A DNA stretch of 64,000 nt, from the NCBI RefSeq assembly GCF_006345805.1, contig NC_043015.1:12462001-12526000 (forward strand). The letters run 5' to 3'. A model generated the notes under the pieces. That model had not been told where the DNA came from. It did not search any database and saw nothing but the letters and a program-made list of their open reading frames with translations. The position numbers and the translations under genes are program-made. Shown piece by piece: positions 27,620-51,548 of this stretch (position 1 is its first letter; each line of letters starts with the position of its first letter). The DNA comes from Octopus sinensis. Its lineage: Eukaryota.

Positions 27620-28568
27620 TGAATATATATATAAATTTATAAATAAGGGTATCTGAGAGACACCACCATGCCGAAATAGCAATCCCTGACTGCTATTTCG
27701 GCATAGTGGTGTCTCTCAAATACCCTTATTTATAGTTATATATATATATATATACATATATATACGCACACACATATTGGCTCCCGTGTCGGTGGCACAT
27801 AAAAAGCACCATTTGAAAGTGATCGTGCCAACATTGCCTTACCGGCACATGTGTCAGTGGCATGTGAAAAACAACATTCGAGCGTGGTCATTGTCAGTGC
27901 TGCCGGACTGGCTCCCCTGCAGGTAGCATGTAAAAAACACCTTTTGAGTGTGGCCAATGCCAGAACCACCTGACTGGCCCTCGTGCCAGTGGCACATAAA
28001 AGCACCCACTACACTCTTGGAGTGATTGGCGTTAGGAAGGGCATCCAGCTGCAGAAACTTTGCCAGATCAGATTGAGCCTGGTGCAGCCTTCTGACTCAC
28101 CAGTCCTCAGTCAAACTGTCCAACCCATGCCAGCATGGAAAGCAGACTTTAAACGATGATGTTGATGATATATATATATATCTCTATATATAAAATATAT
28201 ATATATATATAATTGCAGCGTGGAAGGTGTTTATAAGCCATTTAAGAAACACACAAAAACCGTTCGATTCACTTCAACATTTAAGTTTAATTTGTCAAAA
28301 TATTTTCGTCGCTAAAATCCACGACCTGTTCACTGACAAAAATCCATGCTGCATCTCAGCACGTGATGCAGCACGGATTTTTGTCAGTGAACAGGTCGCG
28401 GATTTTAGCGACGAAAATATTTTGACAAATTAAACTTAAATGTTGGAGTGAATCGAACGGCTTTTGTGTGTTTCTTAAATGGCTTATAAACACCTTCCAC
28501 GCTCAATTGTTTTCGTTTCAGCACACGATCTCAGATCAAATTACTTGCTATGCGAGTACATCTCCGTA

Positions 28569-28601
<33 letters not shown>

Positions 28602-28904: not shown

Positions 28905-31900
28905 ATAGCATAAATAATATATATATATATAATAGCATAAATAATATATATATATATATAATAGCATAAATAATATATATATATATATATAAGAGCATAA
29001 ATAATATATAAATATTTACATATATACATATATGTACAAACCTACATATATACATGCATATATACACTTGTTTGTTTTCTACACCATCTGTCTTCGTCTT
29101 TTTGTTTTTTTCGGGAATTCTCCCTATATACATGCATATATGGGTACAGGACATCAAAAAAACGTTGAACACAATGAGAAATAAAAACAAAAAAAAACAA
29201 ACGAACATTTTTTCAAACAACAAAAAAAAAAGAGAGAAACGAGACATACAACAAAAAGAATATTCCCCTTCTTCAGTTGTCCCTGTTTCATCTACTCTGC
29301 ATTTCGAAGGTAAGGACAAGACGTGACTTCATTGAAATAGTCCTTCCCGCAAAGCAAATTAAATAAAATTTGGGATTTTTTGCAGAGGGGGAAAGTGGTA
29401 ACAAGAACAGTACTGTGAGAACAAAACAGTAAAAACAATAAAACAGTAAAAGTCAGAACAGTGAGAAAAAAACAGTAAGAACAAACAATGAGGGCTGTTA
29501 AGCCAAGACGATAGAAAAATTCTTCTGAATGCTTAAGGAGAAAGCTTATGAAGAGACAGGATAAGCTGGTCTGGTCTTTGTGAAGATAGTAGTCAGAAAG
29601 ATGGATTCCCTCTCATCACATGTCAACGACAAGAGAGTCGAGGAGGAGGAGTGAGAGCGGGAATGGTGAAGGGGAGAGGAGAAGAATAGGGAAGGGTGAG
29701 AGAGAAAACCAGAAAGTATGAAGAACGAGAGAGGGGGAGAGATATACAGAGAAGAGATAGTAAAGGAGAAGAGTGCGCATCATAATTATTAAGATAAAAC
29801 TTACTTCGAAAAGGATGTGTAGCATTCGATCATCTCTTATAAAAGGCAGATTTTATCTGCCTCCCTTTGGGAGTTATAGAAATCTACAATATAGGATTTC
29901 TTCAATTACAATTTACCTAGCATTTTTAAGAGTACAATGCATCGCGTCATGCCAGGTCCAGTTTTTAAAATTTAAACTCCAATTAAGCAAAATTTACAGA
30001 AAACTCACATTCTGGTGTGTGTGTCAAATGCTTTTCTTAGTCTGGTTTACACCACACGCAAACGCACACACACAGTGGGCAACGAATAAAATGAAAGTAA
30101 TTCACTTACTGTAGTGAGTGATTCTTTCACTCTGCCTCCCACTTCCTCTTTCCACACATAGACACGCAAATATATAAATAAAATTGTAAGCTAACGTGCG
30201 TGTGTGTGAGTGTGTGTGTGTGTGTGTGTGTGAGGGTGCGTGTGTATGTGTGTGCGTGAGTGTGTGACAGGAAAGTTTTTTACGACGAATATAAGACCTA
30301 TATCCAAGTAGCAGAAAGATAAGACAGTAAGGTGTGATTTGAGGGAGATTTGGCTGCTATTTCTACCATGTCTAGCTGCCATGTAGGGGTCTCCCTCATA
30401 GGCTCATACATACATATATACATAGATAAGACAGTAAGGTGTGATTTGGGGGAAATTTGGCTGCTATTTCTACCAGGTCTAGCTACCATGTAGAGGTCCC
30501 CCTCATTGGCTCATATATATATACATACATAAGACAGTAAGGTGTGATTTGAGGGAGATTTGGTTGCTGTTTCTACCAGGTCTGTTAGGCCTTCTCATGT
30601 AAACTCAAGCTTTCTCATGCCTTGAACATAAGACCAAAGCAGAGAATGTATTCTTTTATTCTTCTGCTTTTTCCAGCCATTGGTCTGTGGCTATGCTGGG
30701 GAAATGCCTTGAAGAATTGTAGTTTAATGAATCAACTCCAGTTTTATTTTTGTAAGCATTGTACTTATTCTATCTGTTTCCTTTGTCAAACCACTAGGTG
30801 ACAGGGATGTAAACAAACCAACATTCGTTGTCAAGCAGTGGTGGAGGACAATCACAAGCACAGACACGCACACACACACACATACATGCATACACATATA
30901 CACACATACATACATACATACATATATATATATGTGTGTATATATATATTGCAGCGTGGAAGGTGTTTGTAAGCCATTTAAGAAACACACAAAAACCGTT
31001 ACATTCACTTCAACATTTAAATTTAATTTGCCAAAATATTTTCGTCGCTTTGAGACCGCGACCTGTTCACTGACAAAAATATCGTGCTAACAGGTCGCGG
31101 TCTCAAAGCGACGAAAATATTTTGACAAATTAAATTTAAATGTTGAAGTGAATCTAACGGTTTTTGTGTGTTTCTTAAATGGCTTATAAACACCTTCAAC
31201 GCTGCAACTGTTTTCGTTCCAGCACACGATCTCAGATCAAGTCACTTGCTATGCAAGTACATCTCTGTAACTATATATATATTTATATATATATATATAT
31301 ATGTATATTGGTAAAAACAGTAAGATAACAAAAGAAAGAAAGAGACCTCAATATTATGTAAATAGAGGAAATCTTTATATATAAAAGTGAGGTTGTGTGT
31401 CTGTCTCCTACGATTTAGATTCCTACTCCCACATTTTGCGGTGCAGTTTAACCAAAACCGGGTATCTTATAGTCGTGATTCATATCGAGACCGTCTGGGT
31501 ATTAGCGCGCGTCTACGATGAGTCTACGATTTAAAAAAAAATTTACCATCAATTTTTCCCATTTTTAATCCATTTTTGACATATATAAGGGAAGTAACTC
31601 TCTAAAATTTATTATTAAATCTCAGAACGTAAAAAGCTACAGTAACACCCCTCCCCCTTTGTGGTTAGCCATATTGAGATGGCTATTATACTTTACATCT
31701 CTAAAAATGCTTATATAATTATTTCCCTTACAAACCCGAGCAACGCCGGGCGATACTGCTAGTATAATAATATAAGTAATATATAAATATATGCATGTAT
31801 ATATACATACATATATATGTATATATACATGTATATATGGGTACAGGACATCGAAAAAACGTTGAACACAATGAGAAACGAAAACAGTACTTTAAAAAAT

Positions 31901-34900
31901 AATTACTAGGGTTGATTTGTTCAACTAAAATTCTTCATGGCATTGCCCCAGCATGGCTGCAGTCTAATGATTAAAACAACTGTAAAGGTAAAAAGAAAAA
32001 GATAAAAAGATCCTACTTGTTTATAAAAACTACAATTTAAAGTCAAAATCAATTTATTATAAACTAGCAGTATCGCCCGGCATTGCTCAGGTTTGTAAGG
32101 GAAATAACTATACTTTTACTTGTTTCAGTCATTTGACTGCGGCCATGCTGGAGCACCGCCTTTAGTCGAGCAAATCGACCCCAGGACTTATTCTTTGTAA
32201 GCCCAGTACTTATTCTATCAGTCTCCTTTTGCCGAACTGCTAAGTGACGGGGACGTAAACACACCAGCATCGGTTGTCAAGCAATGCTAGAGGGACAAAC
32301 ACAGACACACAAACACACACACACAAACACACACACATACACATATATATATATATACATACATACGACAGGCTTCTTTCAGTTTCCGTCTACCAAATCC
32401 ACTCACAAGGCTTTGGTCGACCCGAGGCTATAGTAGAAGACATTTGCCCAAGATGCCACGCAGTGGGACTGAACCCGGAACCATATAAGCATTTTTAGAG
32501 AGTTATAGCCAAAAAATAGCAAAAAAATGCATTAAAAATGGAAACAAATGGGTAAATTTTTTTTTAAATCGTTGACTCATTGTAGACATTTTTAGAGTTA
32601 CTTCCCTTATATAATAGCGAAAAAATGCATTAAAATGGGAAAAAATGATGGTAAATTTTTTTTTTAATTGTAGACTCATCGTAGACGCGCGCTAATACCC
32701 AGAAGGGCTCGATATGAATCACCGCAAAATGTGGGAGTAGTTAGGAATCTAAATCGTAGGAGACAGACACACAACTTGACTTTTATATATAAAGATTTTA
32801 TGCCGACTTTGGTTTCTTTGTTTTGTTTTTATATTTTGTGATTCTCTTTTTTATACTTGTTTAGATTGAGGAGCTAAAACCAGGTGGCAAAGACATTCAA
32901 GTAACTAATTATAATCGGATTGAGTATATCCATTTAATGGCAGATTATAAATTAAATAAGCAGGTCTGTAGATTTTGTTTCATTATCAATTTTATTTTTT
33001 ATTTTTCAAATTATTAAAAGACTCAAATTTTTTGTGTCTATAACAATTTTCACTTCAATTTCAAAATGTCATGAACTTTTTTTTTTTTAGATTCGACCTC
33101 ATTGCCATGCTTTCCGATTAGGTCTTGCTAATGTAATCAATCTGGAATGGCTGCGTATGTTTGATGAACATGAACTGCAAGAACTGATATCTGGAGCCAA
33201 CACACCTGTGAATCTCGAAGACTTAAAACAACACACTAATTATTCAGGTTAGTTTCTTAATTATGTTCTTTCACTCTTTGATACTGCTTTCATTGTTGAA
33301 AGTGCACATACATTAACTACTGCTGTCTTGATTTATCTTGGTTAATAAGAAGAATCTCCATCAATTTCAAATTTTGGCACAAGGCCAGCAGTTTTTTGTG
33401 GGAGAGGATAAGTCAATTACATTGCCCCAGTACTCAACTGGTACTTATTTTATCAACCCCAAATGGTTGAGAGGCAAAGTCAGCCTCACAGAATTTGACC
33501 ACAAAATACAGACAGATGAAATGTCAGTAAACATTTCACCTGGCATGCTAACAATTCTGCCAGCTAGCCACTTAAAAAAAATATCTATATTAAAGTGTAT
33601 TATCCCAGTGCACATGTCTAGTGTAGGATTTTATATATGTATATATATACATATATCAAGATTAATCAGCCGAAATTGCGAGGATGATCCAGTTCTTGAC
33701 TGAAGATTAGAGGCTTCGAATGACCCGTCCGTTTTTTTGTGTTGTCTATTTGAATGTTTTGCGTTCTTGTCCCATTTTGTATTTTTTTATATATATATAT
33801 ATATATATTGATGTGTAAAGGTAAGATCCAAGGATCAAGGTGTAGGAACTTATTGAACTTCTAGCAATCCATAGAAGATATAAAAAACAACTTTCAGGAA
33901 AAATAGTGCTTTATTGGTACAGAAGGTTGTGAATTTTTCCCCATATTGACATTTGATAAGTTGAAAAAAGTTAATTTTATAGTTCACACATCAACCCCAG
34001 TTCCACAACCATAGGATGAATTTGATCACATAAAATCCTTAAATAGTCTTGACTGTTAATTCTGCCATGAAGGGAAACCACTGGGCCAGCAGATTTCCAA
34101 GATATAGCCCCTCAGATCATCACAGTTCCTCCTCCATGTCTAACAGTTGGAAGAAGGCAGTCTGGGTCAAATACTTTTAGCCGTCTCCACACATATACTT
34201 GGCCGGTGGTTGGAAATAAGGTAAAGGATGGCTCGTCCAAGAAAATAACATTCTTCCACTGCTCTAGGGACCAATTCTGTTGGTTTTTACTCCACTCTAA
34301 ATGCTTTGCAACGTTTGTTTTTGAATGTAGTGGTTTTCTGATTGCAGCCTTCCCGTGAAATCTGACTTTGTACAGCTCCTGGCAAAAACTTTTTGTGGAA
34401 ACTGGGTTCTCAAGGTGGTCATTAAGCTCTGCAGTAATTTTGGGAGCTGTACTTTTGTGATCCTTCCTTACAATTCACATAAGAGTTCGACAGTCCTTAT
34501 CTGAAAGCTTAGGTTTTCTTCTGGAGTTTTGTTTCAATGAGGAGGTTTTTCCCTCTTTCTCAAAGGCTGTCATTACTTTCAAGACACTACTTCTTGATAC
34601 ACCAAACATTTCAGCTTTTTTACATTATGCTAGCGCCTGCCATACAAGCACCAACAATTTGACCTCTTTGAAAGTCCAATAGATCTGTCATTTTAATGAA
34701 TTTTGATTATCTTTTTATTATGATATCAGAAAAGAAACAGTAATTTTAGCAAAACATATTAAGCATCACTAATAATAAATCAAACAACATAAAAGTATAC
34801 AAGCTTTTGACAGTTTTATAGATATTTCAAAATTATGAAGCTATGATGCTAGGTGTTTCCATTATTTTGTCCAACCCCTGTGTACACCCGTCTAACACCC

Positions 34901-37900
34901 GTGGACATATTTACAAAGTCAGAAAACAGCACAGCTCCCATGACTTTAGGTAACATTTTTTTCACGCTGAGAGTTGCTGAAGCATGGAACAAACTGCCGG
35001 CATCAGTTGTTAGTTGTCGGAGCACTGCATCCTTCAAAACTTCCATGCTTTCTGAGATTCGCCAACACTACACCTGATTTTCTCCCCTCCATACACACAC
35101 CAGCATGTATCTGACTCATACATTATTCGCTTTCCAGACATTTGTACATTACTGCATATACTTTATACGCACTGTCTGACAAGTTGTGGTGCACCTGAGC
35201 ACTGTATACAATAATTTCATTATTATTATTATTGTATATATATATACACACACACACACAGTTAGGCACATAAGTGCAAACAATGTGGAAAAAATTGTAC
35301 TCAAATACCAAAGGTAGTGTAATATATTTTATTATAAAAGTCACAAAAATTCACAGAACTGTTACGCGGAGTTTCACATTCTCATTCATGAGGTAGTTGT
35401 GATGAATACTGTCTAACAAACGGGAACATGAAACTCGGAGTAACAGTTCTGTGACTATTTTGCAGCTTTTATAATAAAGTGTATATATATATTTAAAATA
35501 TTGGTTTCTTTCAGTTTCCATCTACCAAATCCATTCACAAGGCTTTGGTCAGCCTGAGGCTGTAGTAAAAATCCCCTTGAAGGCACCATGCAGTGGGATT
35601 GAACTTGGAACCATGTGGTTGGGAAGCAAGCTTCTTATCACACAGCTATGCCTGTGCCTATTCACCAAATATTTTCATATATTTTATATTTGCGACCCAA
35701 GGCCAACTATTTTGAGGGAAGGAGTTTTGTATCAACTTCAGTACTTGACTGGTACTTTATCTTAATGACCCTGTAGGGATAAAAAGCTAAGTTGACCTCT
35801 GTGGGATATTCTAAATATTAGTTTTATTTGTTGATATTTTCTAATTTTGCTGAAGTAATTGTTTACAATTATGTTACATATTTTTTGTTTATTCTAATAT
35901 AATATTTTTCTGTTGCAGGGGGCTTTACTGCTGAACATCCTGTGATAGAAATTTTTTGGAAAGTTGTCTATGAATTGACCGACCAACAACTAAGGCAGTT
36001 GTTAAAATTTGTAACTAGCTGTTCTCGGCCACCTCTGCTGGGTTTTAAGGTTAGTATTATTCTGAATTATTAATCTTGTAAAATAATTTTGTTATCACCT
36101 TTTACTCTTTTAACCTTTTAGCATTTAAACCAGCCATATCCAGCCTAAATATTCAACCAGCTATCTGTTCAAATGAACCAGATCTGGCCTCTCACACCTA
36201 TCCTACAATGTCATTCTAAAAATCTAGCAATCACATCAATCTAGCATTATCTCACATCTCAAAGCTGTGAGATAATGCATGATTAAATCAAAATAATATG
36301 AATAAATCAGAATTACATTTGACAGTAATCTGAATGCTAATGGATTAAATCAGTTATCCAATTCTGCATGTATTGAATGGATTTAACAACATTGGACATT
36401 TATATATTAGTGGAGCAACTGGATTCATTTGCTCAACTAAGAGGTAGGTATGAAACATATTAGCCAAATAGACTGTGGTATGCAGCTATCTTGTCTGGGA
36501 ACTTAATATGATGGCTCAGAGAGCTCTTTGCCTCTGCTGGCAACAAAGGTCCTCTCCCTCAGGGTAAAAGACAGAGTGTATGATGCCTGTGTGTTAACAG
36601 CTAAGCTACATGGCAATGAAACATGGCCTGTGATAGCCAATGACATAATTAGGCTTGAAAGAAATGAAGCCAGTATGCTTTGCTGGATGTGCAATGTCAG
36701 TGTGCATGTTCAACAGAGTGTAAGCATCTTCAGAGAAAACTTAGGTATAAGAGGCATCAGATGTAGTGTGCAAGAGAGATGAATGCACTGGCATGGTCAT
36801 GTGATGCATATGGACAAGGACAGCTGTGTATGTAAAGAAGTGCTGATCTCTAACTGTGGAGGGAACCTGTGGTAGAGGTAGACCCAGGAAGACATGGGAT
36901 GAGGTGAAGCATAATCTTCAAACTTTGGGCTCCATAGAGGCAATGACTAGTGACCGAGACCTTTGTCGATATGTTGTGCTTGAGAAGACCCGTCAAGCCA
37001 AGTGAAATCATACTCATGGCTGATGCTGGTGTCACATAACTAACACCTGCACTAGTGGCACATACAAAGCACCCATTACACTCTTGGGGTGGTTGGTGCT
37101 AGGAAGGGCATCCAGCAGTAGAAACCATGCCAAATCAGACGGGAGTCTGGTACAGCCTACCACCTTGCCAGCCCTGGTCAAACCGTCTAATCCATGCCAG
37201 CATGTACAACAGATGTTAAATGATGATGATGATGATGACCCACCAAAGTAAATTTGTTCATGTAGATCACACATCAAAGTAATACCTTTCTTTTTCTTAA
37301 GAAATTATGTGAATTTAATGCTGGTTTCTTGTAAAAATGCAATTGTCTTCTAGTTTCTTGTAAGAATTCAACTGCCTTCGTCTCATCGCTGATCACATTG
37401 TAAAAATCTTTAGCCAACAACTTACGGGTTTTTAGAAATTGTAAAATAAACTAAAAGGTAACCTAAAGTAATCTCCTTTGTAGATCACATTCCAAAGTAG
37501 CACCAAAGTTTGCTTCCCAACCACATGGTTCTGGGTTCAGTGTCTTCTACCATAGCCCCAGACTGACAAAAACCTTGTGAGAGAATTTGGAAGATAGAAA
37601 CTAAAAGAAGCACATTGTATGTGTGTATATATATATATGTATGTGTGTGTGTTTGTGCGCACGCACACACACACACACATATATAAGTTCAGCAAAATTT
37701 AGATACAGATGAATATGGTACTTAAGTTAAAGGCACCAGAATTGTGTATGGTATTATCCATATAAATCAAATGGGGTTATTATAATTAAAATAAGCAACA
37801 AGGATATCCAAGGTAGAGTAGTACAATTATTTCATGCTACTTCATTTTATTAAACACTGTAAGTATTACATCAGTTTTAAAATGTCGAGCAATCTTCAGC

Positions 37901-38852
37901 CACATATAGAATTTTCCAATTAAACGGACAATGCACATTCTTATCCCTATTTCATTTGCCAACAAAAGAGGGTAGATATATAAACAGAGAGGTTAATTTC
38001 ATTCTTAAGAACATAATAGTAGTATGTTCATTCTCTGTCTATATATATACCGGAGTAAATACATAAATGTGAAACAAGGTGGAAGAAAGAGTACTCAAAT
38101 ACCAGGGGTAGAGTAATATGCTTTATTTAAAAGCAGCAGAAAATTCAACAAAACCTGTAACTCTGAGTTTCACGTTCCCGTTCGTCGGACAGTTTTTGCT
38201 AAAATAGAACCGATATGCCAATTCTAGCGTTTATACTAGTCTTGATAGAATTGGCATATCAGTTCTATTTTAGCAAAAACTGTCCGACGAACGGGAAAGT
38301 GAAACTCAGAGTTACAGGTTTTGTTAAATTTTCTGCTGCTTTAAATAAAGTATATATATATATACATACACACACACATATGTGTGTGTTTTTGTGTCAC
38401 CTTGTCTTTACATCAGGTGATAGTAGTCAATGAGTGTCATTGTCACACAAGCAGTGTCATTCATTTTCAGTAATCCATGGAAATACCCCTACCCATGGGA
38501 GAAATATCCTGTTTGGAAACAGGTGGAGGGTCGTGTCAGGAAAGACATCAAGCCATAGAAATTCTGCCTCAATATACTGTTTCTGACCCATGGAAGCATG
38601 GAAAAGAGAATGTTAAAGTAGTGATGATGATGATGATAATGATATTTGTATAAAGATGTGCCATTATTTTTCTTTTTCTAGGATTTATATCCAGTCTTTT
38701 GTATCCATAATGCTGGTACTGAATTGGAGCGCCTACCCACTGCTAGTACATGTATGAACTTACTGAAGCTTCCCGAGTTCTACAATGAAGAGACAATGAG
38801 AAGTAAATTACTATATGCAATTGAATCAGCTACAGGATTTGAACTCAGTTAA
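2259..38852 (+). CDS. UBE3C: HECT-type E3 ubiquitin-protein ligase UBE3C (E3C) ortholog; 18 coding exons in window, 5' end outside window
   Basis: Manually spliced exons (2672 nt) keep one open frame with GT-AG junctions. The peptide follows UBE3C as recalled: [98 protein letters not shown], catalytic [14 protein letters not shown] and terminal GFELS*. Confidence 0.95.
2570..3017 (+). mobile_element. RTE-clade LINE 3' fragment
   Basis: Encodes ..[10 protein letters not shown].. followed by the family 3' UTR (ggcatccagc...catagaaaacagatgctaaatgatgatgat) with a (GAT)n tail. The same family recurs many times in the window. Confidence 0.75.
4496..4767 (+). CDS. UBE3C: UBE3C exon
   Basis: Junctions tttacag| and |gtaagt; encodes [20 protein letters not shown]...[15 protein letters not shown]. 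Confidence 0.9.
4887..5035 (+). CDS. UBE3C: UBE3C exon
   Basis: Junctions tttcag| and |gtgagt; acidic stretch [14 protein letters not shown] lies where UBE3C has its acidic linker. Confidence 0.9.
6414..6598 (+). CDS. UBE3C: UBE3C exon
   Basis: Junctions ttctcag| and |gtaact; encodes [11 protein letters not shown]...[20 protein letters not shown]. Confidence 0.9.
9618..9704 (+). CDS. UBE3C: UBE3C exon
   Basis: Junctions gtttcag| and |gtaagt; encodes [16 protein letters not shown]. Confidence 0.9.
10569..10800 (-). mobile_element. Young Deu/Nin-domain-type SINE with 14-bp TSD
   Basis: Carries the family core gtcgactttgcctttcatcctttcggggtcgataaattaagtacc on the - strand. Flanked by direct repeat ATAGAATGAATACC (10555-10568, 10801-10814). 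Confidence 0.8.
11315..11770 (+). mobile_element. Two tandem copies of the same SINE family
   Basis: The unit ggcagcgagctgacagaatc..gagttcaaattc..tttcatccttt..ccctccccaaaatttcaggc..gaaaggattattatt occurs twice. Confidence 0.75.
12656..12810 (+). CDS. UBE3C: UBE3C exon
   Basis: Junctions ttttcag| and |gtaata; encodes [11 protein letters not shown]...[18 protein letters not shown]. Confidence 0.92.
14837..15072 (+). CDS. UBE3C: UBE3C exon
   Basis: Junctions tttcag| and |gtaaga; encodes [31 protein letters not shown]...WRHLFK. Confidence 0.93.
16521..16930 (+). mobile_element. tRNA-derived SINE with internal (TA)n/(TG)n
   Basis: Head caggagtggctgtgtggtaag...gagttcagtccc (Pol III A/B boxes), cttgggcaagtg core, tail ..gactgaaacgagtaaaagag. 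Related copies at ~18024-18230, 20820-21220, 25654-26070 and 60618-61005 (+), and at 7945-8160, 19050-19335 and 32113-32482 (-). Confidence 0.8.
17319..17423 (+). CDS. UBE3C: UBE3C exon
   Basis: Junctions ttttcag| and |gtaaac; encodes [21 protein letters not shown]. Confidence 0.93.
19434..19503 (+). CDS. UBE3C: UBE3C exon (divergent linker)
   Basis: Long polypyrimidine tract, ttacag| and |gtaagt. The 70-nt length supplies the phase-0 to phase-1 bridge required between the flanking exons. Confidence 0.82.
19624..20010 (+). mobile_element. Young tRNA-derived SINE with 10-bp TSD
   Basis: tRNA-like head ggcgcaatggcccagtagttagggcagc...gtttcgattt with CpGs retained. Direct repeat ATACTCTATG at 19614-19623 and 20011-20020. 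Confidence 0.8.
20666..20763 (+). CDS. UBE3C: UBE3C exon
   Basis: Junctions tgtgcag| and |gtatgt; encodes [28 protein letters not shown]. Confidence 0.92.
22733..22874 (+). CDS. UBE3C: UBE3C exon (start of HECT region)
   Basis: Junctions tattag| and |gtagtt; encodes [22 protein letters not shown]. Confidence 0.93.
23254..23648 (-). mobile_element. 5'-truncated RTE/BovB-like LINE insertion with 12-bp TSD
   Basis: ORF reads [41 protein letters not shown] (RTE C-terminus), with an (AAG)n tail. TGTTATGAATGT is duplicated at 23242-23253 and 23649-23660. Confidence 0.85.
23839..24083 (+). CDS. UBE3C: UBE3C exon (HECT)
   Basis: Junctions aatcag| and |gtaagg; encodes [29 protein letters not shown]...[10 protein letters not shown]. 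Confidence 0.95.
25184..25308 (+). CDS. UBE3C: UBE3C exon (HECT)
   Basis: Junctions ttctag| and |gtaagt; encodes [21 protein letters not shown]...[11 protein letters not shown]. Confidence 0.95.
27640..27735. repeat. ~95-bp near-perfect palindrome embedded in (TA)n
   Basis: Left arm ataaataagggtatctgagagacaccaccatgccgaaatagca, a 9-nt loop, right arm tgctatttcggcatagtggtgtctctcaaatacccttatttat. Confidence 0.85.
28291..28340 (-). ncRNA. Minimal type I hammerhead ribozyme motif, G3-C8 variant (opposite strand)
   Basis: Reverse complement reads TTTGTCA GTGAACA G GTCGT-ggatttta-GCGAC GAAA ATAT TT TGACAAA; stem II is retained through a G-U pair. Confidence 0.72.
28380..28429 (+). ncRNA. Minimal type I hammerhead ribozyme motif, G3-C8 variant
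   Basis: TTTGTCA [GTGAACA] G GTCGC-ggatttta-GCGAC [GAAA] ATAT [TT] TGACAAA gives a 7-bp stem I, 5-bp stem II and palindromic tetraloop stem III. Confidence 0.75.
28680..28770 (+). CDS. UBE3C: UBE3C exon (HECT)
   Basis: Junctions ctcacag| and |gtattg; encodes [27 protein letters not shown]. Confidence 0.95.
30310..30585 (+). repeat. Three tandem ~105-110-bp repeats
   Basis: The unit ataagacagtaaggtgtgatttgagggagatttggctgctatttctacc.. occurs three times, separated by (TA/CA)n. Confidence 0.8.
30948..31270 (+). mobile_element. Palindromic hammerhead element family A, copy 2 (centre partly deleted)
   Basis: Same arms and tail as 28211-28569. The - strand ribozyme motif is intact at 31027-31077; the + strand copy lacks its stem I 5' strand and the start of the core. 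Confidence 0.8.
31372..31762 (+). mobile_element. Non-autonomous Helitron-like element
   Basis: Starts TC (a|tctttatatataaaag) and ends CTAG|t. GC-rich subterminal hairpin cccgagcaacgccggg. Inserted at A|T with no TSD. Confidence 0.8.
32064..32795 (-). mobile_element. Second copy of the Helitron-like element, inverted, interrupted by a SINE (32113-32482)
   Basis: Begins a|ctagcagtatcgcccgg and ends ttttatatataaaga|t, the reverse complement of 31372-31762. Confidence 0.8.
32865..32963 (+). CDS. UBE3C: UBE3C exon (HECT)
   Basis: Junctions gtttag| and |gtctgt; encodes [31 protein letters not shown]. Confidence 0.95.
33091..33247 (+). CDS. UBE3C: UBE3C exon (HECT)
   Basis: Junctions tttttag| and |gttagt; encodes [35 protein letters not shown]. 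Confidence 0.95.
34130..34883 (-). mobile_element. Degenerate Tc1-like transposon (5' TIR and transposase N-terminal part)
   Basis: TIR caggggttggacaaaataatggaaacacc at ~34852-34880(-). ATG at 34691 gives [15 protein letters not shown] (Tc1 HTH), and later [24 protein letters not shown] (first catalytic D region). Confidence 0.8.
34884..35233 (+). mobile_element. CR1-like LINE 3' fragment
   Basis: Encodes [18 protein letters not shown], with a 3' UTR and (TAT)n tail matching the 47115-50193 element. Confidence 0.85.
35260..35485 (-). mobile_element. Palindromic hammerhead element family B, decayed copy
   Basis: Inverted arms around 35330-35480 and a tail matching 38050-38115. The core has decayed to CTAACAA...GAAA ctcggag TA. 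Confidence 0.7.
35919..36049 (+). CDS. UBE3C: UBE3C exon (HECT C-lobe)
   Basis: Junctions gttgcag| and |gttagt; encodes [11 protein letters not shown]...[17 protein letters not shown]. Confidence 0.95.
36110..36348. mobile_element. TTAA-flanked MITE
   Basis: Ends read ttaa-ccttttagcatt ... aatgctaatgga-ttaa. A sibling lies at 40571-40798. Confidence 0.7.
36500..37240 (+). mobile_element. RTE-clade LINE 3' fragment
   Basis: Encodes [14 protein letters not shown]...GNETW...[16 protein letters not shown]...GRPRKTW, with a (GAT)n tail. Confidence 0.85.
37818..37903 (-). ncRNA. Degenerate hammerhead motif with long stem II loop
   Basis: On the - strand: GTGG CTGAAGA ttgct ..~50 nt.. agcat GAAA taattg TA CTAC. 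Confidence 0.55.
38050..38355 (-). mobile_element. Palindromic hammerhead element family B
   Basis: ~110-bp inverted arms (38118-38227 / 38245-38352), a one-sided tail (38050-38115) and (TA)n flanks. Hammerhead motifs at 38155-38192(-) and 38280-38317(+). Confidence 0.8.
38155..38192 (-). ncRNA. Minimal hammerhead ribozyme motif (U4C variant)
   Basis: On the - strand: CTGT [CCGACGA] ACG-GGAA-CGT [GAAA] CTCAGAG [TT] ACAG. Confidence 0.7.
38682..38852 (+). CDS. UBE3C: UBE3C terminal coding exon (catalytic Cys)
   Basis: Acceptor ttctag|; encodes [34 protein letters not shown]...GFELS, with TAA at 38850-38852. Confidence 0.96.
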
Positions 38853-43640: not shown

Positions 43641-45133
43641 GTTAGTACCAATAATTTGTGAAAATATTGTCCCCGATAATGTGGTTTGATCAGATCACTG
43701 GACATCATACATCAATAATGGAGGAGAAGATGGACTTTAGCATTGCATTAAAGAACAGTAAATCCAAAGAAGAACTGTCTTTGTGATGATCTATCCAACT
43801 TTTGCAAGCAGGAAAAGCAGCTATAAAATAATGATACAATATACATGGATGAAAGGAGGTGTGATAGATTCACTCTTTCCTCTTGGGCTGGAGACCACAT
43901 AGAAAAGTATCCCAATGGAAAATTTTTTTATTAGAAATTAGTGTTTATTTTGTTTTGTGTCAAATTTCAGACAAATCAGTCCTTCTGTTCTGCAGTTATA
44001 CCATGAATGTTTTAGGTTGCCTCAAAGTTATATGAGAGGAGACCAATATTCCTTGCAAACAGCTAAGGCAGCGTGCATCCTCTTTTATTTATATTTTTGT
44101 GACAGTTTTATTATAAGAGGAAAAAGTTTGACAAGATCCATTTACTGACACTAAGATATGAAAATAGATTCAAGGGAGGGAAGAAAGACTAGAGAATCAA
44201 AAATAAGAGCAAAGAAGATGAAACAGAGTAAACTTTTTAAAAAATGGTTAAGATTCATGTAAATTAGAAATTAATTACACTTTAAGTTATGTGGACAATG
44301 AGCATCTCTATAGAAGCCTTCCAAAAGTGACCAAGAAGCTCTGAGAATGACTTCTCCACATGTCCGGTCATTGCATGCAGCATTAAGAGGTATTAAAATT
44401 TGTTCTTTGGGGACCTATAACATGATCCCAGCCCCTGCGAGAGATATCATCTGATGTTTATGATCAATTGGAAAAAAGACAGGATTTGATTCTTATCCAC
44501 TTACTGAAGGTGGTGATGATGGATCAAGATGCTTGACAAAATGGCTTTGTCTTCAAGGAGCAGGTGAGAACTGGCCAAAGTAAGTAATGTGGAAGAGTAA
44601 TTGAATATGCAGTACCAGAAAAAATATTCAGCAATATGCCATGCAGTAGGATTGAACCCAGAATCAAGTGGTTGGGAAGCAAGCCTCTTACTGCACCAGT
44701 GTCCATAAAGGATATAGCTCTTTCCCAAGTCCTATGGACTCATAAGGCTTGTTTCTCAGTTCCTGTAGTGTATATATTCCCCCATGGATATGACAGTCTG
44801 TGGCAAGGTTACTCATTTTTGCCAGCTGAGTGAATTGGAGCAATGTGAAATAAAGTATTTTACTCAAAAACACAACACGTTGTCCAATCCAGGAGTCAAA
44901 ACTACAATCCAACACCCTAACCCACAGAATCATGTGCCTCCATATTTTAAGAATTTCATGTGTATTAATAGACATCAAACAGACTCTGTTTTAAAAAAAG
45001 GTACGATGCCAGAAACACCATAAGAGAGACCTGTCAGTCGTGTCCGTTATAACATCTACCTTTCTGGTCTCTGTTGCTGAAGGGGAGATAACCACTCCGA
45101 AGTGCATGTATGTCAGCAGTGAGAAAATTAAGG

Positions 45134-45480
45134 TTATCTCTGCAGATGTTCAATAGAAATTATAGCCACCACTGATTTTTTAATGAAGTTTCTTATCAGA
45201 AGATGTCTAATGTAAACAACGATGCAATCGATGATGGTAAAATAGGTAATGGGTGTATATGCATATTTCAGGAGTTCTTGCTCCTTCTCCAACACCACTT
45301 CCAATCCATTAACCATCCATGAACACATTTGCATATGAAATCCTGAAATTTGCATATGCACCCATTACCCATTTTGCCATCTTCGATTGCATTGTTGTTT
45401 ACATTAGACATCTTCAGATATGAAACATCATAACAAATCAGTGCTGGCTTATAATTTCTATAGAGAATCTGTAGAGATGA
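45134..45480. repeat. Diverged ~140-bp-arm inverted repeat (foldback/MITE-like)
   Basis: 45134-45272 is the approximate reverse complement of 45341-45480 (e.g. agatgtctaatgtaaacaac / gttgtttacattagacatct). Confidence 0.75.
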
Positions 45481-45559
45481 CCTTAACATGTGATTTAATA
45501 GCACTGCTAACTCAGTAGGACACAGTATTGACTTATAAAGCATTCAATATACTTTATGT

Positions 45560-46005: not shown

Positions 46006-47149
46006 AGCCTTTTTTTACCGAAAAGGCTTCTCCCCAAAACAAAACAATAATATGCCTAAATCGGTCTAGAGTGGGATATGAGGGTGCGTGTGGAGTGTGG
46101 GTCGTATTGTAAAAATTTGCAAAATATTTTTTCATAAAAGGATGCCCCAGATTGTCAGAGGCTGTGATATAAATTCAGAAAAAAATCCTCGACACCAGTG
46201 CGTAATTGGTACTTAATTTATCGACCCCGAAACGATGAAACATTGACCCCACCCCATTTCTGGTTTATTTACCTTTTGTGTAAATTTGTTCCGGCAAGGG
46301 GCAAAACACAGAGGGGACAAAGCATGAGATACAAAAGTATTAAGTCGATTCTATCGACACCAGTGCGAACTCACGAACGTGTATGTATGCTTGTGTGTGT
46401 TTGTATATCTCCGTTTGTATGTGTGTGTACGCTTATATATTAATTACTATGTGCTTGTGCAAATGTATATGCATGTGTTTGAGAGTGTGACAGAGTGTGT
46501 GTGTATGTATCTGAATATATGTGTGTGTGTGTGTGTATGCAGCGTGCGTCTCCTCGTTTGTTTATCAATATCGATAACGCAGCAAATGATTTGAGCTCAA
46601 ATGCTGGCAATTCATTGGTTAAAATTCGAAGAATTAAACTACGTTAAACTTACAAATTACAATTTTCTCAAAAAAGCCAAGTGAAAATAATGTTTTCTTT
46701 TGACACATTCTACCAGTATACGGAGTTTCAAATTGTTTAGTTAACTAGAAATTGTGTTGAATTCCATCCATCAAAAGGAAAAGATCCAACGTATTAGCGA
46801 TGCTTCTGCAATCGATAGATTCATATCTATTGTGACGCAGGGGATATGAAACTTGTGATTTGTTCGAAAAATAAAGGAATGTATTTCGGACTTTCGCCTT
46901 AACAAAATTCTTTTCTAGTCTAGGCACAAGACCCGATTTTTGGGGAGGGGGCCCAGTCGATTAGATCAACTCCAGTTAATTGCTAGTTGCGTACAGGGTC
47001 GATCTAATCGACTGGCCCCCTCCCCCAAAATTTCGGGCCTTATACCTAGAGTAGAAAAATTATTTCGAACAGCCTAATGACGGAAGCCAGTTAAAATATA
47101 AATACGTATATATAATAATAATAAACATTGTGTACAGTGCTCAGGTGCA

Positions 47150-49933
47150 CTACAACTCATCTAAAGTGCATATATAATCAGGTGTAGTTTCGACGGATTT
47201 CGGAAAGCATGAGGGCCTTAAAGGATGCAGTGTCATGGCAGTCAACAACTGATGCAGGCAGTTTATTCCATGCTTCAGCGTGAAGAAATGTTTCCGAAAG
47301 TCATGGGAGCTGTGTTGTTTTCTGACTTTGTAGGCATGTCCACGTGTGTTAGACACATGGAGATCAAAAAGGTGTTCAGTGTTGTTATTGGTGAGGTGGT
47401 TGACAACTTTGTGGGCGTTTACCAAGTCCGTCGCCAGACGCCGGAGCTTCAGTGAATCCATGCCCAGGGAAACAAGGCGCTCAGAATATGGTAGGTGTCT
47501 GATGGAGGGTATGCGTTTGGTTGCACGTCTCTGAACCGATTCCAGGAGGTCAATGTTCTGAGCAAGATAGGGTTTCCAAACTGATGATGCGAATTCCAAG
47601 TGTGGTCGTACCATAGCTGTATACAGTTTTAAATAGATGGCTGGAGAGTGGCTAACAAAAGTCTTGCTGAGTGATGCCAAGACACCCTCGGCCTTCTTGA
47701 CAATTTTAGAGATATGCTTTGTCCAACGCAAATCACTGCTGACAGTGATACCTAGGTCACGCTCGCATAAGGATTTCTTGATATCAGTGTTGTGGAGGGA
47801 GTATGTGGACGCAGGGTTTTTTCTCCCAAAATGCATGGTGGTACACTTGTCCACAGCCAGTTTCAGTTGCCAGTCTGTGATCCATTGCTGCATTGTGTCC
47901 AGGTCTGATTGCAGGAAAGAGCTGTAGACAACAGGATCTGTCCTCTTGATTTCAAGGTACAGCTTGATGTCGTCTGCATATTTTAATACTGTGGCATTCT
48001 TTAAATTTGCATCTATGTCATTAATGTATGCCACAAACAAGAGGGGACCAAGGACAGATCCCTGTGGTACATCCGATGACATCTCATATGGTGTAGAATG
48101 CTGTCCTAGAACTGTGACTACCTCCTTTCGGTTGAGAATGAAGGATTTCAACCAGTTAAAAAGGTCATCCCTCACACCCATTGCAGAGAGTTTCACCATA
48201 AGCCTTTTGTGTGGCACAGAGTTGAAAGCCTTAGCAAAGTCAAGGTAGACAACATCCACCCATGAGCCACTGTCAGAGATCTGAGTAATGTCCTCAAGGA
48301 ACTCGACAAGCTGATCACTGCAGCTGGAGTTAGGGACAAATCCATATTGTGAGGGTCGGATGAGACTGTGTGAGCTCCAGAAGTTCCAAAGTGTTTCTCT
48401 GACACACGATTCCATCAGTTTTGCAATACAGCTAGTGAGACTGACTGGGCGATAGTTGACAGGTGATGTGCGGTCGCCCTTTTTGAACAGAGGAATGACA
48501 CTGGCAGTTTTCCACTGTTCCAGAGTAGCACCATTGTTGAGACAGTACTGGAAGAAAATAGAGAGCTGGTGTAAAAGGAAGTACCTGCCACGTTTGAGAA
48601 GCAGGTATGTAACTCCATCAAGACCAGGGGAGGCATAGTTGCGCTTATTTTGAAGGTGACATCGCAGCATTGCAGGTGTAAATTCCATAGTTGTTATGGA
48701 ATTTGCTGTTAGAGATGGTGAAGATGGTACATTTTGATTTTCAACAGTGAATATGTTTTCATAGCACTCGGCAATGAGTTCTGCGCATTCCTTGGGGTCG
48801 TCAGTGATCTGGTTTGTGTGAGGATTGCGAAGAGGACCCACTGGAGAGTGAGGTCTCTGCTTTGAATGCACATATTTCCAGAAAACCTTGTTGTCAGGAT
48901 TGGCTGCTATGCACTGTTCAAATTCAAGCACTGCTTTTTTTGTCACTTGCTTGAGATGGTTGGAAGATTTATTCCGCTTCTTCCTGTTGGTGTCTGATTT
49001 ATGCAACTTGTATTCCCGTTCAGCAGTCCGACGTTCCTTCCTGGCAAGTCTGACCGCTGAAGTTTCCCAAATTGCCCTTTTGGGGCGGTTCTTCTTTTTC
49101 TGTTTACGTGGCACTGATGCTGCACATGCTGCCCATATTGAGTCCAGGATACTCTGGAGTATAGTATTCACATCTCCAGAGTTGTAGAAATCATGCCAGT
49201 TTGGGTGCTGTAGTTCAGTGTGGTACAGGTTCCCATCTGCTCTCTTCCAATCGAAGGAAGCAGATTGGAGATGGTTCAGGTTTTTGTTGCCCGCAAGAGC
49301 CAGATTGGCGATGATCATAGCATGGTCAGAGTCACCTAGAGGTTCCTCCGTAGTGCAATTGATAACCGCTTCAGGAGTTGTGGTGAAGAGCAGGTCCAAG
49401 GTGCTGTCGCCTCTTGTTGGAGAGGTGACTACTTGTGACCAGTTTGAGTCCAGCACAAGCTCAACAAAATCGTTTGCACTCTGTGGCCAATGGAAGGTTT
49501 CCCAATTGATCTCAGGATGATTGAAATCGCCTGCAACAAAAACATAAGTGGCTGTTTTCCTGGCAGCAGCTCGGAGGATATTGCAAAGCTGTGTGTCCTG
49601 ATGGTAATTTGGGGGACGATAAACAACGCCAAGCAGGAGTGTTGACATGGTCATACGTACGTCACAGAAAAAAACTTCTTCTTGTGATTCGTTCAAATCG
49701 GCACAAGGAATTACCAAAAAATTTGAACGAACGCAGACCATCACACCACCACCACGGCGGTTAATGCGGTCCTTACGGAAGAGGTTGTACCCCGTAATGC
49801 TGAAAACCCCGTCACAGAGTAAGGAATGCGCCCATGTTTCCGTGACAGTGATGAAGTCAGGGTCAATACTTCTGACGTAGGCGTTGAACAAATGAATTTT
49901 GTTGCACAAACTGCGAGCATTTAAGGACAACAA
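47150..49933 (-). CDS. LINE ORF2: APE endonuclease + reverse transcriptase (C-terminal frameshift)
   Basis: EN motifs LNARSL, VTETW, YRPP, GDFNHP, DSDH. RT motifs YRPVSLTS, QYGF, DFAKAF, VPQGSVLGPLLF, YADD. A 10-nt deletion near 47275 relative to the 34970 copy shifts the last ~40 aa. Confidence 0.93.
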   Translation of the reverse strand: MLSLNARSLCNKIHLFNAYVRSIDPDFITVTETWAHSLLCDGVFSITGYNLFRKDRINRRGGGVMVCVRSNFLVIPCADLNESQEEVFFCDVRMTMSTLLLGVVYRPPNYHQDTQLCNILRAAARKTATYVFVAGDFNHPEINWETFHWPQSANDFVELVLDSNWSQVVTSPTRGDSTLDLLFTTTPEAVINCTTEEPLGDSDHAMIIANLALAGNKNLNHLQSASFDWKRADGNLYHTELQHPNWHDFYNSGDVNTILQSILDSIWAACAASVPRKQKKKNRPKRAIWETSAVRLARKERRTAEREYKLHKSDTNRKKRNKSSNHLKQVTKKAVLEFEQCIAANPDNKVFWKYVHSKQRPHSPVGPLRNPHTNQITDDPKECAELIAECYENIFTVENQNVPSSPSLTANSITTMEFTPAMLRCHLQNKRNYASPGLDGVTYLLLKRGRYFLLHQLSIFFQYCLNNGATLEQWKTASVIPLFKKGDRTSPVNYRPVSLTSCIAKLMESCVRETLWNFWSSHSLIRPSQYGFVPNSSCSDQLVEFLEDITQISDSGSWVDVVYLDFAKAFNSVPHKRLMVKLSAMGVRDDLFNWLKSFILNRKEVVTVLGQHSTPYEMSSDVPQGSVLGPLLFVAYINDIDANLKNATVLKYADDIKLYLEIKRTDPVVYSSFLQSDLDTMQQWITDWQLKLAVDKCTTMHFGRKNPASTYSLHNTDIKKSLCERDLGITVSSDLRWTKHISKIVKKAEGVLASLSKTFVSHSPAIYLKLYTAMVRPHLEFASSVWKPYLAQNIDLLESVQRRATKRIPSIRHLPYSERLVSLGMDSLKLRRLATDLVNAHKVVNHLTNNNTEHLFDLHVSNTRGHAYKVRKQHSSHDFRKHFFTLKHGINCLHQLLTAMTLHPLRPSCFPKSVETTPDYICTLDEL

Positions 49934-49989
49934 TTTGTACCCTGCTTGCAGTTTATGATGGTGTGTAGAGGATGGCAGGTTTTTCAGGT

Positions 49990-50193
49990 TTAGTTTCCCT
50001 GAGTTGCTGTAGTTTTTTTAGTTTTTTTTTCAGTGACAGTCATTGTGGGTAGTGAGCACTCAGACCAGCTGTTATCTCTCTTCCACGTTTCACCCGTCTT
50101 AACAAATCTCCAGATTTGTCCATCTTCACGAAGACTGAAGCTTTCATGTAGAGCTGAGTTCCGGTTCAGGGAAGCCGCTACACATAGCTTCGG
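49990..50193 (-). CDS. LINE ORF1 C-terminal remnant
   Basis: An open frame of 67 sense codons, PKLCVAASLN...KTTATQGN*, overlaps the ORF2 frame and is cut off at the element's 5' truncation point. Confidence 0.65.
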   Translation of the reverse strand, partial: PKLCVAASLNRNSALHESFSLREDGQIWRFVKTGETWKRDNSWSECSLPTMTVTEKKTKKTTATQGN

Positions 50194-50772: not shown

Positions 50773-51079
50773 GTATGTATCTGAAAAAATAAATGTCTTC
50801 TTTCTTTTTCGCTGAATAAATTTTGTATTTATATGAAATAGTGTCTTCTTCGTTCGACCACATCTTTTAAGAAATTTATTCTACACCGCTTTTCAACCCT
50901 TTTATTTGAATGAGTTTTTTTCCACGTACCCCCTTTTAATGTGCTTATACATAGGTATGAATTTTTGAATTTAGTTTGTAGCGAACACTAGTGTTTGCTA
51001 CGAGTTCAAGGACCTCTACTACCATCTTTGCCGACCCCAGGTTGGGAACCCCTGTTCTACGAAAACAAATTACAGAATA

Positions 51080-51326: not shown

Positions 51327-51548
51327 AAATTACAGAATAAGAAACGAGGTATTATTGTACAGCGTTGATGTCATAGAAAGCTACAAAAACAATTATATTT
51401 ACAATATTGTAAAGGCATGACAGTGCCATATTGTATGTTCTACACCACTGTGATAATATTTTTGAACATTATTTCCGGGTTCCATTCAAAGAAACGCATA
51501 CAACTTGTTTCTAGCACATGAGTTGATGCGGGAATTGTGTTTGTTTAT

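What the first reader, a model, noticed from the sequence alone, without database searches (positions are those of the whole stretch)
38050..38355. Second palindromic ambisense-ribozyme family (U4C core, GGAA tetraloop) in the last UBE3C intron
Seen: the same architecture as family A (inverted arms, one-sided tail, (TA)n flanks) but unrelated sequence. The motif is CTGT-CCGACGA-ACG(GGAA)CGT-GAAA-CTCAGAG-TT-ACAG on the - strand, with a mirror on the + strand carrying one stem II mismatch. The older copy near 35400 shows mainly CpG-type decay (CCGACGA to CTAACAA). Inference: the shared architecture in unrelated families points to a common insertion mechanism that generates inverted pLTR pairs.
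Basis: partly seen in the sequence, partly recalled or inferred. Interest (0 to 1): 0.7.

Follow-up and report, generated by a model that had tools for sequence, protein, structure and literature searches.

The report
Fold-back Penelope stub, variant hammerhead
This is the short tail end of a Penelope-like jumping gene, inserted as a mirror-image pair in an animal intron; the layout is known, but the whole family seems to carry an unusual letter in the core of its small self-cutting RNA motif.

Summary
In detail: a 301-bp head-to-head palindrome (38050-38350) between (TA)n runs in the last UBE3C intron, with a type I hammerhead motif in each arm and a one-sided ~70-nt tail. It is not an ambisense replicon. 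The two motifs are copies of one sequence, and the 100-bp hairpin buries both. It is best read as the 3' stub of a Hydra-type Penelope-like element (PLE). Stem I, stem III, both 3' ends and tail length match Hydra-2_Amil-like elements that sit behind a Hydra endonuclease ORF. Family B's own ORF was not found. Centres vary per copy, so the mirror is built at insertion. In two DNA runs no U4 reached 4% of depth, so U4C looks family-wide, whereas all 139 related motifs and all 25 listed Hydra hammerheads have U4. This copy's U17 is private; the family has A17. 5' ends cluster just upstream of the ribozyme, about 30 nt behind a TATA box, which suggests the stubs are copies run to the RNA start. 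Cleavage is untested. Verdict: known architecture with a new core variant; interest 0.4.

The parts
38040..38049 (.). (TA)5 left flank, target microsatellite; also the end of a different high-copy repeat
   Evidence: loose ends reading (TA)n at 38040 in 115-180 contigs per DNA run
38050..38120 (-). One-sided 3' tail, about 70 nt (boundary uncertain by about 4 nt because of AT microhomology); long 3' end 105 nt after stem I
   Evidence: relatives end 96-102 nt after stem I
38093..38114 (-). Bulged hairpin in the tail, candidate Hydra-type cis element
   Evidence: top hit of a model built without it, 12.5 bits, E 0.74 in 64 kb; family variants fall in loop (38106) and bulge (38097); tail-only sequence HMM missed it; fold z-score of the tail -0.3
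38121..38226 (-). Left arm, element sense on the - strand; short 3' end 34 nt after stem I
   Evidence: fixed short end followed by (TA)n in 15-23 contigs per DNA run, agreement 0.85-0.97
38148..38199 (-). Type I hammerhead motif: stem I 4+6 bp with an A-G mismatch; core C3 C4 G5 A6 C7 G8 A9 (38188-38182); stem II 3 bp with GGAA loop; G12-A14; 9-nt odd palindrome in stem III; U16.1 U17; predicted scissile bond 38159/38158
38203..38207 (-). Initiator-like YYANWYY with its A at 38205, 30 nt after the TATA motif; candidate RNA start (inferred; consensus recalled)
   Evidence: family depth falls from 22-29% (38190-38204) to 5-7% (38205-38219) in X1 and X4
38227..38245 (-). Unpaired 19-nt centre, containing TATAAA at 38235-38230 on the - strand; probably native upstream sequence of the left arm
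   Evidence: depth 0.01-0.04% of the hammerhead level in three DNA runs
38246..38350 (+). Right arm, element sense on the + strand (same sense as UBE3C); hammerhead core C3 at 38284; stem II closing pair broken at 38298
38351..38364 (.). (TA)7 right flank
35261..35481 (.). Older family B copy: tail on the left, turn about 8-12 nt upstream of the core (near 35400-35405), T at position 4 in both arms, A17 in both arms
38682..38852 (+). Last coding exon of UBE3C (host gene context)

Best explanation
The feature is a short 3'-terminal (pLTR) stub of a Hydra-type, endonuclease-bearing Penelope-like element, inserted in a (TA)n run as a head-to-head pair made during integration. Proposed steps: (1) an RNA starts just upstream of the hammerhead, about 30 nt behind a TATA box (inferred); (2) the element's protein nicks (TA)n DNA and starts reverse transcription inside the RNA at one of two fixed sites, the tail end or about 70 nt inward (two fixed ends shown here; internal double start shown in vitro for another PLE); (3) copying usually runs to the RNA's 5' end, giving stubs that begin just before the ribozyme (clustering shown, cause inferred); (4) the second arm is made from the same template, by cDNA fold-back or a second priming, and ends at the inner site (shared private change shown, route not decided). 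This copy came from a rarer, longer template reaching past the TATA box. The hammerhead is a dimer-type motif with a family-wide U4C core; it is probably weak and may need the element's protein. In the intron it is folded away inside a 100-bp hairpin and should not cut UBE3C pre-mRNA.
For: Hydra-2_aMil has the same stem I (CTGT/ACAG), stem III (ACTC-N-GAGT), A17 and a GNRA loop; 5 of 25 listed Hydra families have ACTC-N-GAGT, and 26 of 27 Hydra families list (TA)n targets (read by eye). A pattern allowing U or C at position 4 found 123 loci with 139 motifs. Five of these loci (L001, L024, L056, L121, L122) carry a similar endonuclease C-terminus 98-605 nt upstream, L121 differing from Hydra-2_Amil at 1 of 81 residues by eye. 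In these relatives 3' ends are bimodal: 49 of 69 evaluable F1 ends at 28-35 nt and 17 of 69 at 96-102 nt after stem I; this copy has 34 and 105. 16 head-to-head pairs (two are the same locus) have gaps of 3-38 nt (one 545); the tail is on one arm in 12 of 16 and on both in 0 of 16. Centres differ within family B (38227-45; about 35403; contig junctions at 38204 and 38198) and among the three family A copies. Both arms share U17, absent from 99.7% of the family. 38 of 41 evaluable F1 copies keep at most 16 nt upstream of C3, and 6 of 7 families with native-looking upstream sequence have TATAWA 37-43 nt before C3 against a 1.4-3.4% background. All G-site changes of 4% or more are accounted for in X1 and X4, none at 38187. 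Shown family variants inside the motif fall at N7, the N of GNRA and the centre of stem III.
Against: No RT or endonuclease ORF was found for family B itself; no genome is held and a motif scan of the window found no PLE protein remnant. The pattern that found the relatives was designed from this motif and Hydra-2_aMil, so the hammerhead match is partly circular. The tail-only HMM did not hit either B tail, the tail model scored B1 at E 0.74 only and missed the old copy, and its training tails were picked with a short motif chosen with B in mind. Pfam has no hit on the endonuclease pieces. The U4C inference rests on bookkeeping of a cut table from contigs, is depth-weighted toward young subfamilies, and is open in X6 (1 unshown G>A place) and X8 (2). 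35 of 76 F1 motifs could not be scored for their 5' end, and the pattern excludes copies cut inside stem I. The depth fall upstream of 38196 could also reflect subfamilies with other upstream sequence (loose-end agreement about 0.5). Reported PLE tails are 30-40 bp, and the studied Drosophila Penelope promoter is TATA-less (abstract).
Confidence: 0.82

Rival explanations
1. Sub-mechanism A (within the best explanation): the second arm is made by fold-back, the 3' end of the first cDNA priming on itself.
For: Both arms of this copy reach 38 nt upstream of C3, where family depth is 0.2-0.4%, and share the private U17. The unpaired centre looks like native upstream sequence of one arm (TATA motif). 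Arkhipova 2013 reads palindromes at inverted junctions as self-priming. Contig joints between 38117-38142 and 38191-38196 on opposite strands would fit a turn through stem I.
Against: Fold-back alone does not explain why the second arm stops at a fixed inner site. Several related junctions hold short reiterated pieces of the hammerhead (L010, L026, L078), more like end joining with templated inserts.
Confidence: 0.45
2. Sub-mechanism B (within the best explanation): both target strands prime separately at the two internal start sites, on one RNA or on two RNAs held together by the stem III palindrome, and the two cDNA ends are joined head to head.
For: The anole PLE protein cuts and extends both strands, starts at two internal sites and is predicted to be a dimer (PMC11167929). 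Two fixed 3' ends are seen. A fixed RNA start would make most junctions near-symmetric without fold-back. The stem III 9-mer can form an 8-bp intermolecular duplex, -7.4 kcal/mol.
Against: Two independent RNAs would rarely both extend past the modal 5' end and both carry U17, as here.
Confidence: 0.38
3. A replicating palindromic unit or viroid-like element with a ribozyme in each polarity, as the word 'ambisense' implies.
For: A hammerhead motif lies on each strand, about 95 nt apart.
Against: The centre is not shared (0.01-0.04% of family depth) and differs between copies; both motifs are the same sequence; both are sequestered in the hairpin; ambisense elements are circular RNAs without a DNA counterpart (PMC10162972 passages); 0 matches in viral contigs.
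Confidence: 0.02
4. A MITE-like DNA transposon with long terminal inverted repeats inserted at TA.
For: Inverted arms, TA flanks, high copy number and no ORF.
Against: One end carries a 70-nt tail outside the repeat, so the termini are not inverted repeats; centres vary; an RNA motif with variation at unpaired positions is kept; the same layout adjoins a PLE endonuclease ORF in L121.
Confidence: 0.03
5. A non-autonomous retrozyme or SINE-like family that has no coding parent of its own and is moved in trans by a PLE protein.
For: No ORF found; a TATA and initiator-like pair right before the hammerhead would allow a ~150-nt transcript; animal retrozymes are proposed to derive from PLE pLTRs (bioRxiv 10.64898/2026.07.22.740005).
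Against: Retrozymes are head-to-tail tandem arrays with a hammerhead per unit; none is seen here. The closest relatives with the same geometry have coding parents. The two readings differ only in whether a parent survives.
Confidence: 0.1
6. A Naiad PLE end whose variant hammerhead was missed by CUGANGA-based searches.
For: Naiads target (TA)n and were reported to lack canonical hammerheads using a CUGANGA descriptor.
Against: The one cephalopod Naiad 3' end I saw (Naiad_Obim) is unlike family B by eye; the motif matches Hydra hammerheads.
Confidence: 0.03

Closest known systems
Hydra clade of C-terminal-endonuclease PLEs, especially Hydra-2_Amil (Craig et al. 2021, PMC8557442; section 11, Files S1, S2, S7)
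   Same: (TA)n targets; hammerhead near the 3' end; stem I CTGT/ACAG; stem III ACTC-N-GAGT; A17; GNRA loop 2; U before GAA (17 of 25 families by my reading of the table); an inverted 5'-truncated copy noted for Penelope-13_HM; two 3' ends about 70 nt apart in related loci.
   Different: C4 instead of U4 (all 25 listed cores begin CUGA, though that table lists canonical motifs by construction); stem II of 3 bp, at the short end of the table; TATA motif about 5 nt further upstream; no ORF shown; sequence outside the motif too diverged for a profile hit.
General PLE insertion architecture (Craig 2021 Fig. 2; Arkhipova et al. 2013, PMC3846280; Frangieh et al. 2024, PMC11167929)
   Same: Inverted 5'-truncated copy at the 5' end, tail on one side only, microsatellite or AT-rich targets, two reverse-transcription start sites defining the tail.
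   Different: Tail about 70 nt rather than 30-40; the insertion is reduced to the pLTR pair; no target-site duplication can be read inside (TA)n.
Minimal dimer-type hammerheads of metazoan PLEs (Cervera and de la Pena 2014, PMC4209133; review PMC6765202)
   Same: Type I topology, palindromic stem III unable to close as a monomer, opposite-strand pairs within 100-700 bp.
   Different: No G10.1-C11.1 pair, no clear bulged base after A9, short stem II, U4C.
U4C hammerhead variant of a viroid (Ambros and Flores 1998, seen only as cited in Perreault et al. 2011, PMC3088659)
   Same: Same core change; reported to lower cleavage considerably in vitro yet permit infectivity.
   Different: There a variant of an RNA replicon; here apparently the norm of a high-copy genomic retroelement family.
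Viroid-like circular RNAs with paired ambisense ribozymes (Forgia et al. 2023, PMC10162972)
   Same: A ribozyme motif on each strand.
   Different: Those are circular RNA replicons without a DNA stage; this is an inverted DNA duplication with a variable centre.

Membership tests
Endonuclease-bearing PLE | ORF with PLE reverse transcriptase and GIY-YIG endonuclease | not testable with these tools
   No host genome held; none in the window; present only behind the related motif in other organisms
Endonuclease-bearing PLE | Inverted 5'-truncated copy head to head, with variable junction | tested here: met
Endonuclease-bearing PLE | One-sided tail from two fixed 3' ends | tested here: met
   loose ends at 38040 and 38130; length about 70 nt, longer than the 30-40 reported
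Hydra clade | (TA)n insertion preference | tested here: met
Hydra clade | Canonical hammerhead core (CUGANGA) | tested here: not met
   core is CCGA(C/U)GA; 139 of 139 related motifs have U4
Hydra clade | Hydra-type stems (9-nt odd palindrome in stem III) and 3' geometry | tested here: met
   my own derived feature, not a published definition
Hydra clade | Sequence or structure homology of the tail | tested here: inconclusive
   HMM negative; covariance model top hit at E 0.74
Hydra clade | Protein signatures (RWK, DKT, CxCX5C, no CCHH) and RT phylogeny | not testable with these tools
   no family B protein available; so I say it works like and is probably related to Hydra, not that membership is shown
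Type I hammerhead ribozyme | Three-way junction with stems I, II, III and an NUH site | tested here: met
   stem III only as a dimer; the hammerhead fold is not the minimum-energy fold of the monomer
Type I hammerhead ribozyme | Invariant core C3 U4 G5 A6 G8 A9 G12 A13 A14 A15 U16 | tested here: not met
   U4C; all other listed positions met (consensus)
Type I hammerhead ribozyme | Self-cleavage | not testable with these tools
   no assay; contigs cannot show RNA ends
Viroid-like ambisense circular RNA | Fixed unit sequence replicated as RNA, no DNA counterpart | tested here: not met
   genomic DNA, variable centres
Non-LTR retrozyme | Head-to-tail tandem units each with a type I hammerhead | tested here: not met
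   both window copies are head-to-head; the rest of the genome was not seen

The most novel reading that the evidence does not exclude
A very high-copy Hydra-type PLE family has fixed a catalytically crippling U4C change while keeping the hammerhead's shape under selection, because the motif works mainly as an RNA dimerisation and protein-loading module. Two RNAs paired through stem III feed a dimeric RT that primes from both target strands, starting at a conserved bulged hairpin in the tail and running to a TATA-driven RNA start just before the motif. The head-to-head product silences its own ribozyme in host pre-mRNA and fills introns with long double-stranded RNA.
Probability: 0.2. Interest if true: 0.68.

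Novelty: new variant of a known kind. Interest (0 to 1): 0.4.

Why it matters
The role of PLE hammerheads is an open question: catalytic mutants did not affect insertion in vitro for one PLE (PMC11167929), and it has been suggested that they may simply parasitise PLEs (PMC8557442). A natural family that amplified widely with U4C is a ready test of whether catalysis or shape is what is kept. It also shows that CUGANGA descriptors miss whole families (family A, with a swapped G3-C8 pair, would be missed too). The clustering of 5' ends behind a TATA box offers a simple reason why genomes fill with ~110-150-nt PLE stubs. The insertion architecture itself is ordinary.

Tried and rejected
Whole-genome copy census: no genome held. 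Exact family B motif in metagenome and viral contigs: 0 and 0; relaxed pattern in viral contigs: 0. Rfam: no hammerhead hit on the feature, only hairpin-like miRNA models below threshold. Expression: no RNA holder listed; X8 is only guessed to be RNA, so nothing is concluded on transcription or A-to-I editing. Cleavage defining the template 5' end: depth across the predicted scissile bond falls 4% in X1 and X4 but 38% in X6 and 27% in X8, so there is no clear step in two runs and an unclear result in two. U4C as stop-codon avoidance: one frame runs open through the motif for 34 codons but U4 would not make a stop in it, and family indels at 38129 and 38140 break it; dropped. A 3' splice-site-like TTTTAG just before stem I, as in Drosophila Penelope: a related contig junction reads TAA there; not pursued. 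Naiad origin: dropped. Tail-only HMM: negative. Pfam on endonuclease pieces: no real hit. Look-ups of earlier findings by sequence, place and one word set: empty. Searches for U4C in print (supplements of PMC4209133, one file not searchable) found only Perreault 2011. Lunse et al. 2017 on PLE hammerhead variants is not held and may already list this core; bioRxiv supplements were closed. A search for TATA or start-site explanations of PLE truncation listed only Craig 2021.
Full report
Observation. The sequence shows (TA)5 at 38040-38049, a tail at 38050-38120, a left arm to 38226, 19 unpaired bases, a right arm 38246-38350 and (TA)7. The arms differ at 4 of 98 positions over 38129-38226. A 28-nt motif search gives 2 hits and none in 100 shuffles, and a hammerhead descriptor scan of both strands finds only these two sites. 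The downstream exon matches the C-terminus of human UBE3C at E 7e-26. The older copy at 35261-35481 is 79% identical over 124 nt and lies one intron earlier; a profile of the four arms finds no third copy in the window. The host looks to me like a cephalopod from recall of its repeats; I did not test this.

The motif. On the - strand: stem I of 4+6 bp around an A-G mismatch, core C3 C4 G5 A6 C7 G8 A9, stem II of 3 bp closed by GGAA, G12-A14, a 9-nt odd palindrome as stem III, then U16.1 U17. The hammerhead fold (-6.1 kcal/mol) is not the monomer's best fold (-9.1), while the stem III 9-mer can pair with a second copy at -7.4. This fits the dimer-type PLE hammerheads (PMC4209133, first two of four parts read; PMC6765202 passages). 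In the whole element either strand folds into one hairpin of -171 or -177 kcal/mol, and every hammerhead stem pair has probability below 1e-11. In a head-to-head pair the antisense arm is always transcribed first, so the motif should be captured as it emerges (inference).

The family. No genome is held, so I laid contigs of 4 of the 24 listed runs on 37800-38245: X1 and X8 (organism A), X4 (B), X6 (C). X1 may be the window's own source. 10,188, 8,131, 6,031 and 372 contigs were laid, including those of a separate repeat in the left flank. Summed depth over the motif is about 1.5 million in X1 against 37-70 for most listed single contigs; the tool warns this is no copy number, but the family is clearly very abundant. 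The variant table was cut (40 rows shown, 13 not), so I matched shown rows to the per-run counts by kind. In X1 and X4 all G>A and G>T places are shown and no G>C exists, so positions C3 and C4 have no other letter at 4% or more. One G>A place in X6 and two in X8 are unshown. Shown variants inside the motif are C7 to U (6-34%), GGAA to GCAA (13-45%) and the central stem III base (25-41%), all positions the fold tolerates; if 4-6 of 38 positions are tolerant, three random sites would fall there with probability 0.0005-0.002, but 7-9 unshown places per run could weaken this. Position 17 is A in 99.7-99.9% of depth in the three DNA runs, so U17 is private to this insertion and shared by both arms. 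A young family descended from C4 sources would also show no U4, so fixation is shown better than selection for C4.

Ends and centres. Loose ends show two fixed 3' ends, at 38040 (115-180 contigs per DNA run) and near 38130 (15-23 contigs, agreement 0.85-0.97), both followed by (TA)n. Upstream of the motif depth falls to 22-29% (38190-38204), 5-7% (38205-38219), 0.2-0.4% (38220-38234) and about 0.01% (38235-38245) in X1 and X4. Junctions occur at other places (38204, 38198, and opposite-strand joints between 38117-38142 and 38191-38196; 21 joints unshown). The old copy turns about 8-12 nt upstream of the core, and the three family A copies have three different junctions.

Which element. Craig et al. 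2021 (PMC8557442; passages, section 11, supplement parts 2, 52, 53 and search hits) list 25 Hydra families with hammerheads. By eye Hydra-2_aMil has the same stem I, stem III and A17, and the old copy's right arm shares 17 of 17 nt with it (35430-35446). Five loci carry a similar endonuclease C-terminus 98-605 nt upstream (L121 and L001 64% identical); Pfam does not recognise it, and the tie to Hydra-2_Amil is by eye (1 difference in 81 residues). In the main family, 49 of 69 scorable 3' ends lie 28-35 nt after stem I and 17 of 69 at 96-102 nt; this copy has 34 and 105. Sixteen head-to-head pairs (15 distinct) have gaps of 3-38 nt, one of 545; the tail is on one arm in 12, on both in 0, and unscored or absent in 4. 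Against: a tail-only HMM from 13 representative tails missed both B tails. A covariance model of a bulged tail hairpin from 9 loci (62 of 62 cells paired, two pairs with double changes, 1 of 500 shuffles as high, related sequences) ranked this copy's tail first in the window but at E 0.74, and missed the old copy. The training tails were chosen with a motif picked with B in mind.

Why stubs begin at the ribozyme. Among relatives, 38 of 41 scorable F1 motifs (of 76) keep at most 16 nt of native sequence upstream of C3, with modes at 9 and 12. Six of seven families with native-looking upstream sequence have TATAWA starting 37-43 nt before C3, against 1.4-3.4% for a random 11-nt band (the families are related, so not independent). 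In this copy TATAAA lies 47 nt before C3, inside the unpaired centre, and an initiator-like A lies 30 nt after it at 38205 (promoter consensus recalled). I infer that the usual 5' end is the RNA start, and that cDNA begun inside the tail simply runs to it, as expected from the internal starts shown for the anole PLE (PMC11167929, first two of four parts). A TATA and initiator-like pair was noted in a rotifer pLTR (PMC3846280 passages); Drosophila Penelope is TATA-less (PMC2377424 abstract). An earlier AI note from another genome reported the same clustering; it is a lead, not support.

Mechanism and rivals. Shown: geometry, two 3' ends, variable centres, a shared private change, 5' clustering. 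Inferred: the RNA start, target-primed synthesis at (TA)n, and how the second arm forms. Fold-back (0.45) fits this copy, whose two arms both pass the modal 5' end; double priming with end joining (0.38) fits the fixed inner end and the reiterated junction pieces in relatives. A replicating ambisense unit is excluded by variable centres and by the definition of such elements (PMC10162972 passages). A MITE is unlikely. A parentless retrozyme-like family remains possible (bioRxiv 10.64898/2026.07.22.740005, first of five parts).

Old copy. By my reading, 7 of the 8 CpG sites of the motif are altered in its two arms, so CpG decay is active. But an ancestral U4 needs fewer changes than C4, and the nearest described relative has U4. 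C4 may be a later change; undecided.

Novelty. The architecture is known. U4C was found in print only as a viroid variant that lowers activity (PMC3088659 passages and section 8; searches). Lunse et al. 2017 could not be read and may cover it. I saw nothing on the ~70-nt Hydra tail, its hairpin or the TATA-linked 5' ends in what I read (search 85), which is a narrow search. Verdict: new variant of a known kind, interest 0.4; it works like a Hydra-type PLE end, and membership awaits the parent ORF.

Noticed in passing
window 28211-28570, 30949-31270, 51075-51330: Three family A copies with three different junctions, a tail of about 62 nt on one side, and a hammerhead with a swapped G3-C8 pair, G10.1-C11.1 and U17; the third copy has no (TA)n flanks.
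   Followed up: partly
window 37800-38040: The left flank is itself a high-copy repeat with opposite-strand joints and an end in (TA)n, so family B landed in another element's TA run.
   Followed up: no
window 45128-45486, 54312-54713, 27623-27749, 46911-47058: Four more local palindromes of 127-400 bp, unrelated to A or B; the one at 54312 has CTGATGA in both arms without a matching GAAA, and the one at 27623 has (TA)n on both sides and no tail.
   Followed up: partly
window 47150-50017 (-): A 955-codon open frame with endonuclease and RVT_1 domains, an apparently intact LINE ORF2.
   Followed up: partly
window 63815-63863 (-): Weak Rfam Hammerhead_1 match, 21.4 bits, E 1.6, below the gathering score.
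   Followed up: no
window 34112-34474 (-): Tc3-like transposase fragment.
   Followed up: no
L121, L122, L123: Hydra-2_Amil-like animal retroelement ends inside a record titled as a bacterial MAG, suggesting host DNA in that assembly.
   Followed up: partly
L010, L026, L078 junctions: Short reiterated pieces of the hammerhead at head-to-head junctions, resembling templated inserts.
   Followed up: no
L002, L009, L015, L027, L033, L048, L059, L092, L096 tails: A bulged hairpin with compensatory changes directly after the short 3' end in Hydra-type tails; similar motifs seen by eye in Hydra-2_Ajap and Hydra-1_Crog.
   Followed up: partly
window 38345-38350 (+): An AATAAA lies at the outer end of the right arm, in the sense of UBE3C, about 330 nt before the last exon; it is paired in the hairpin.
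   Followed up: no
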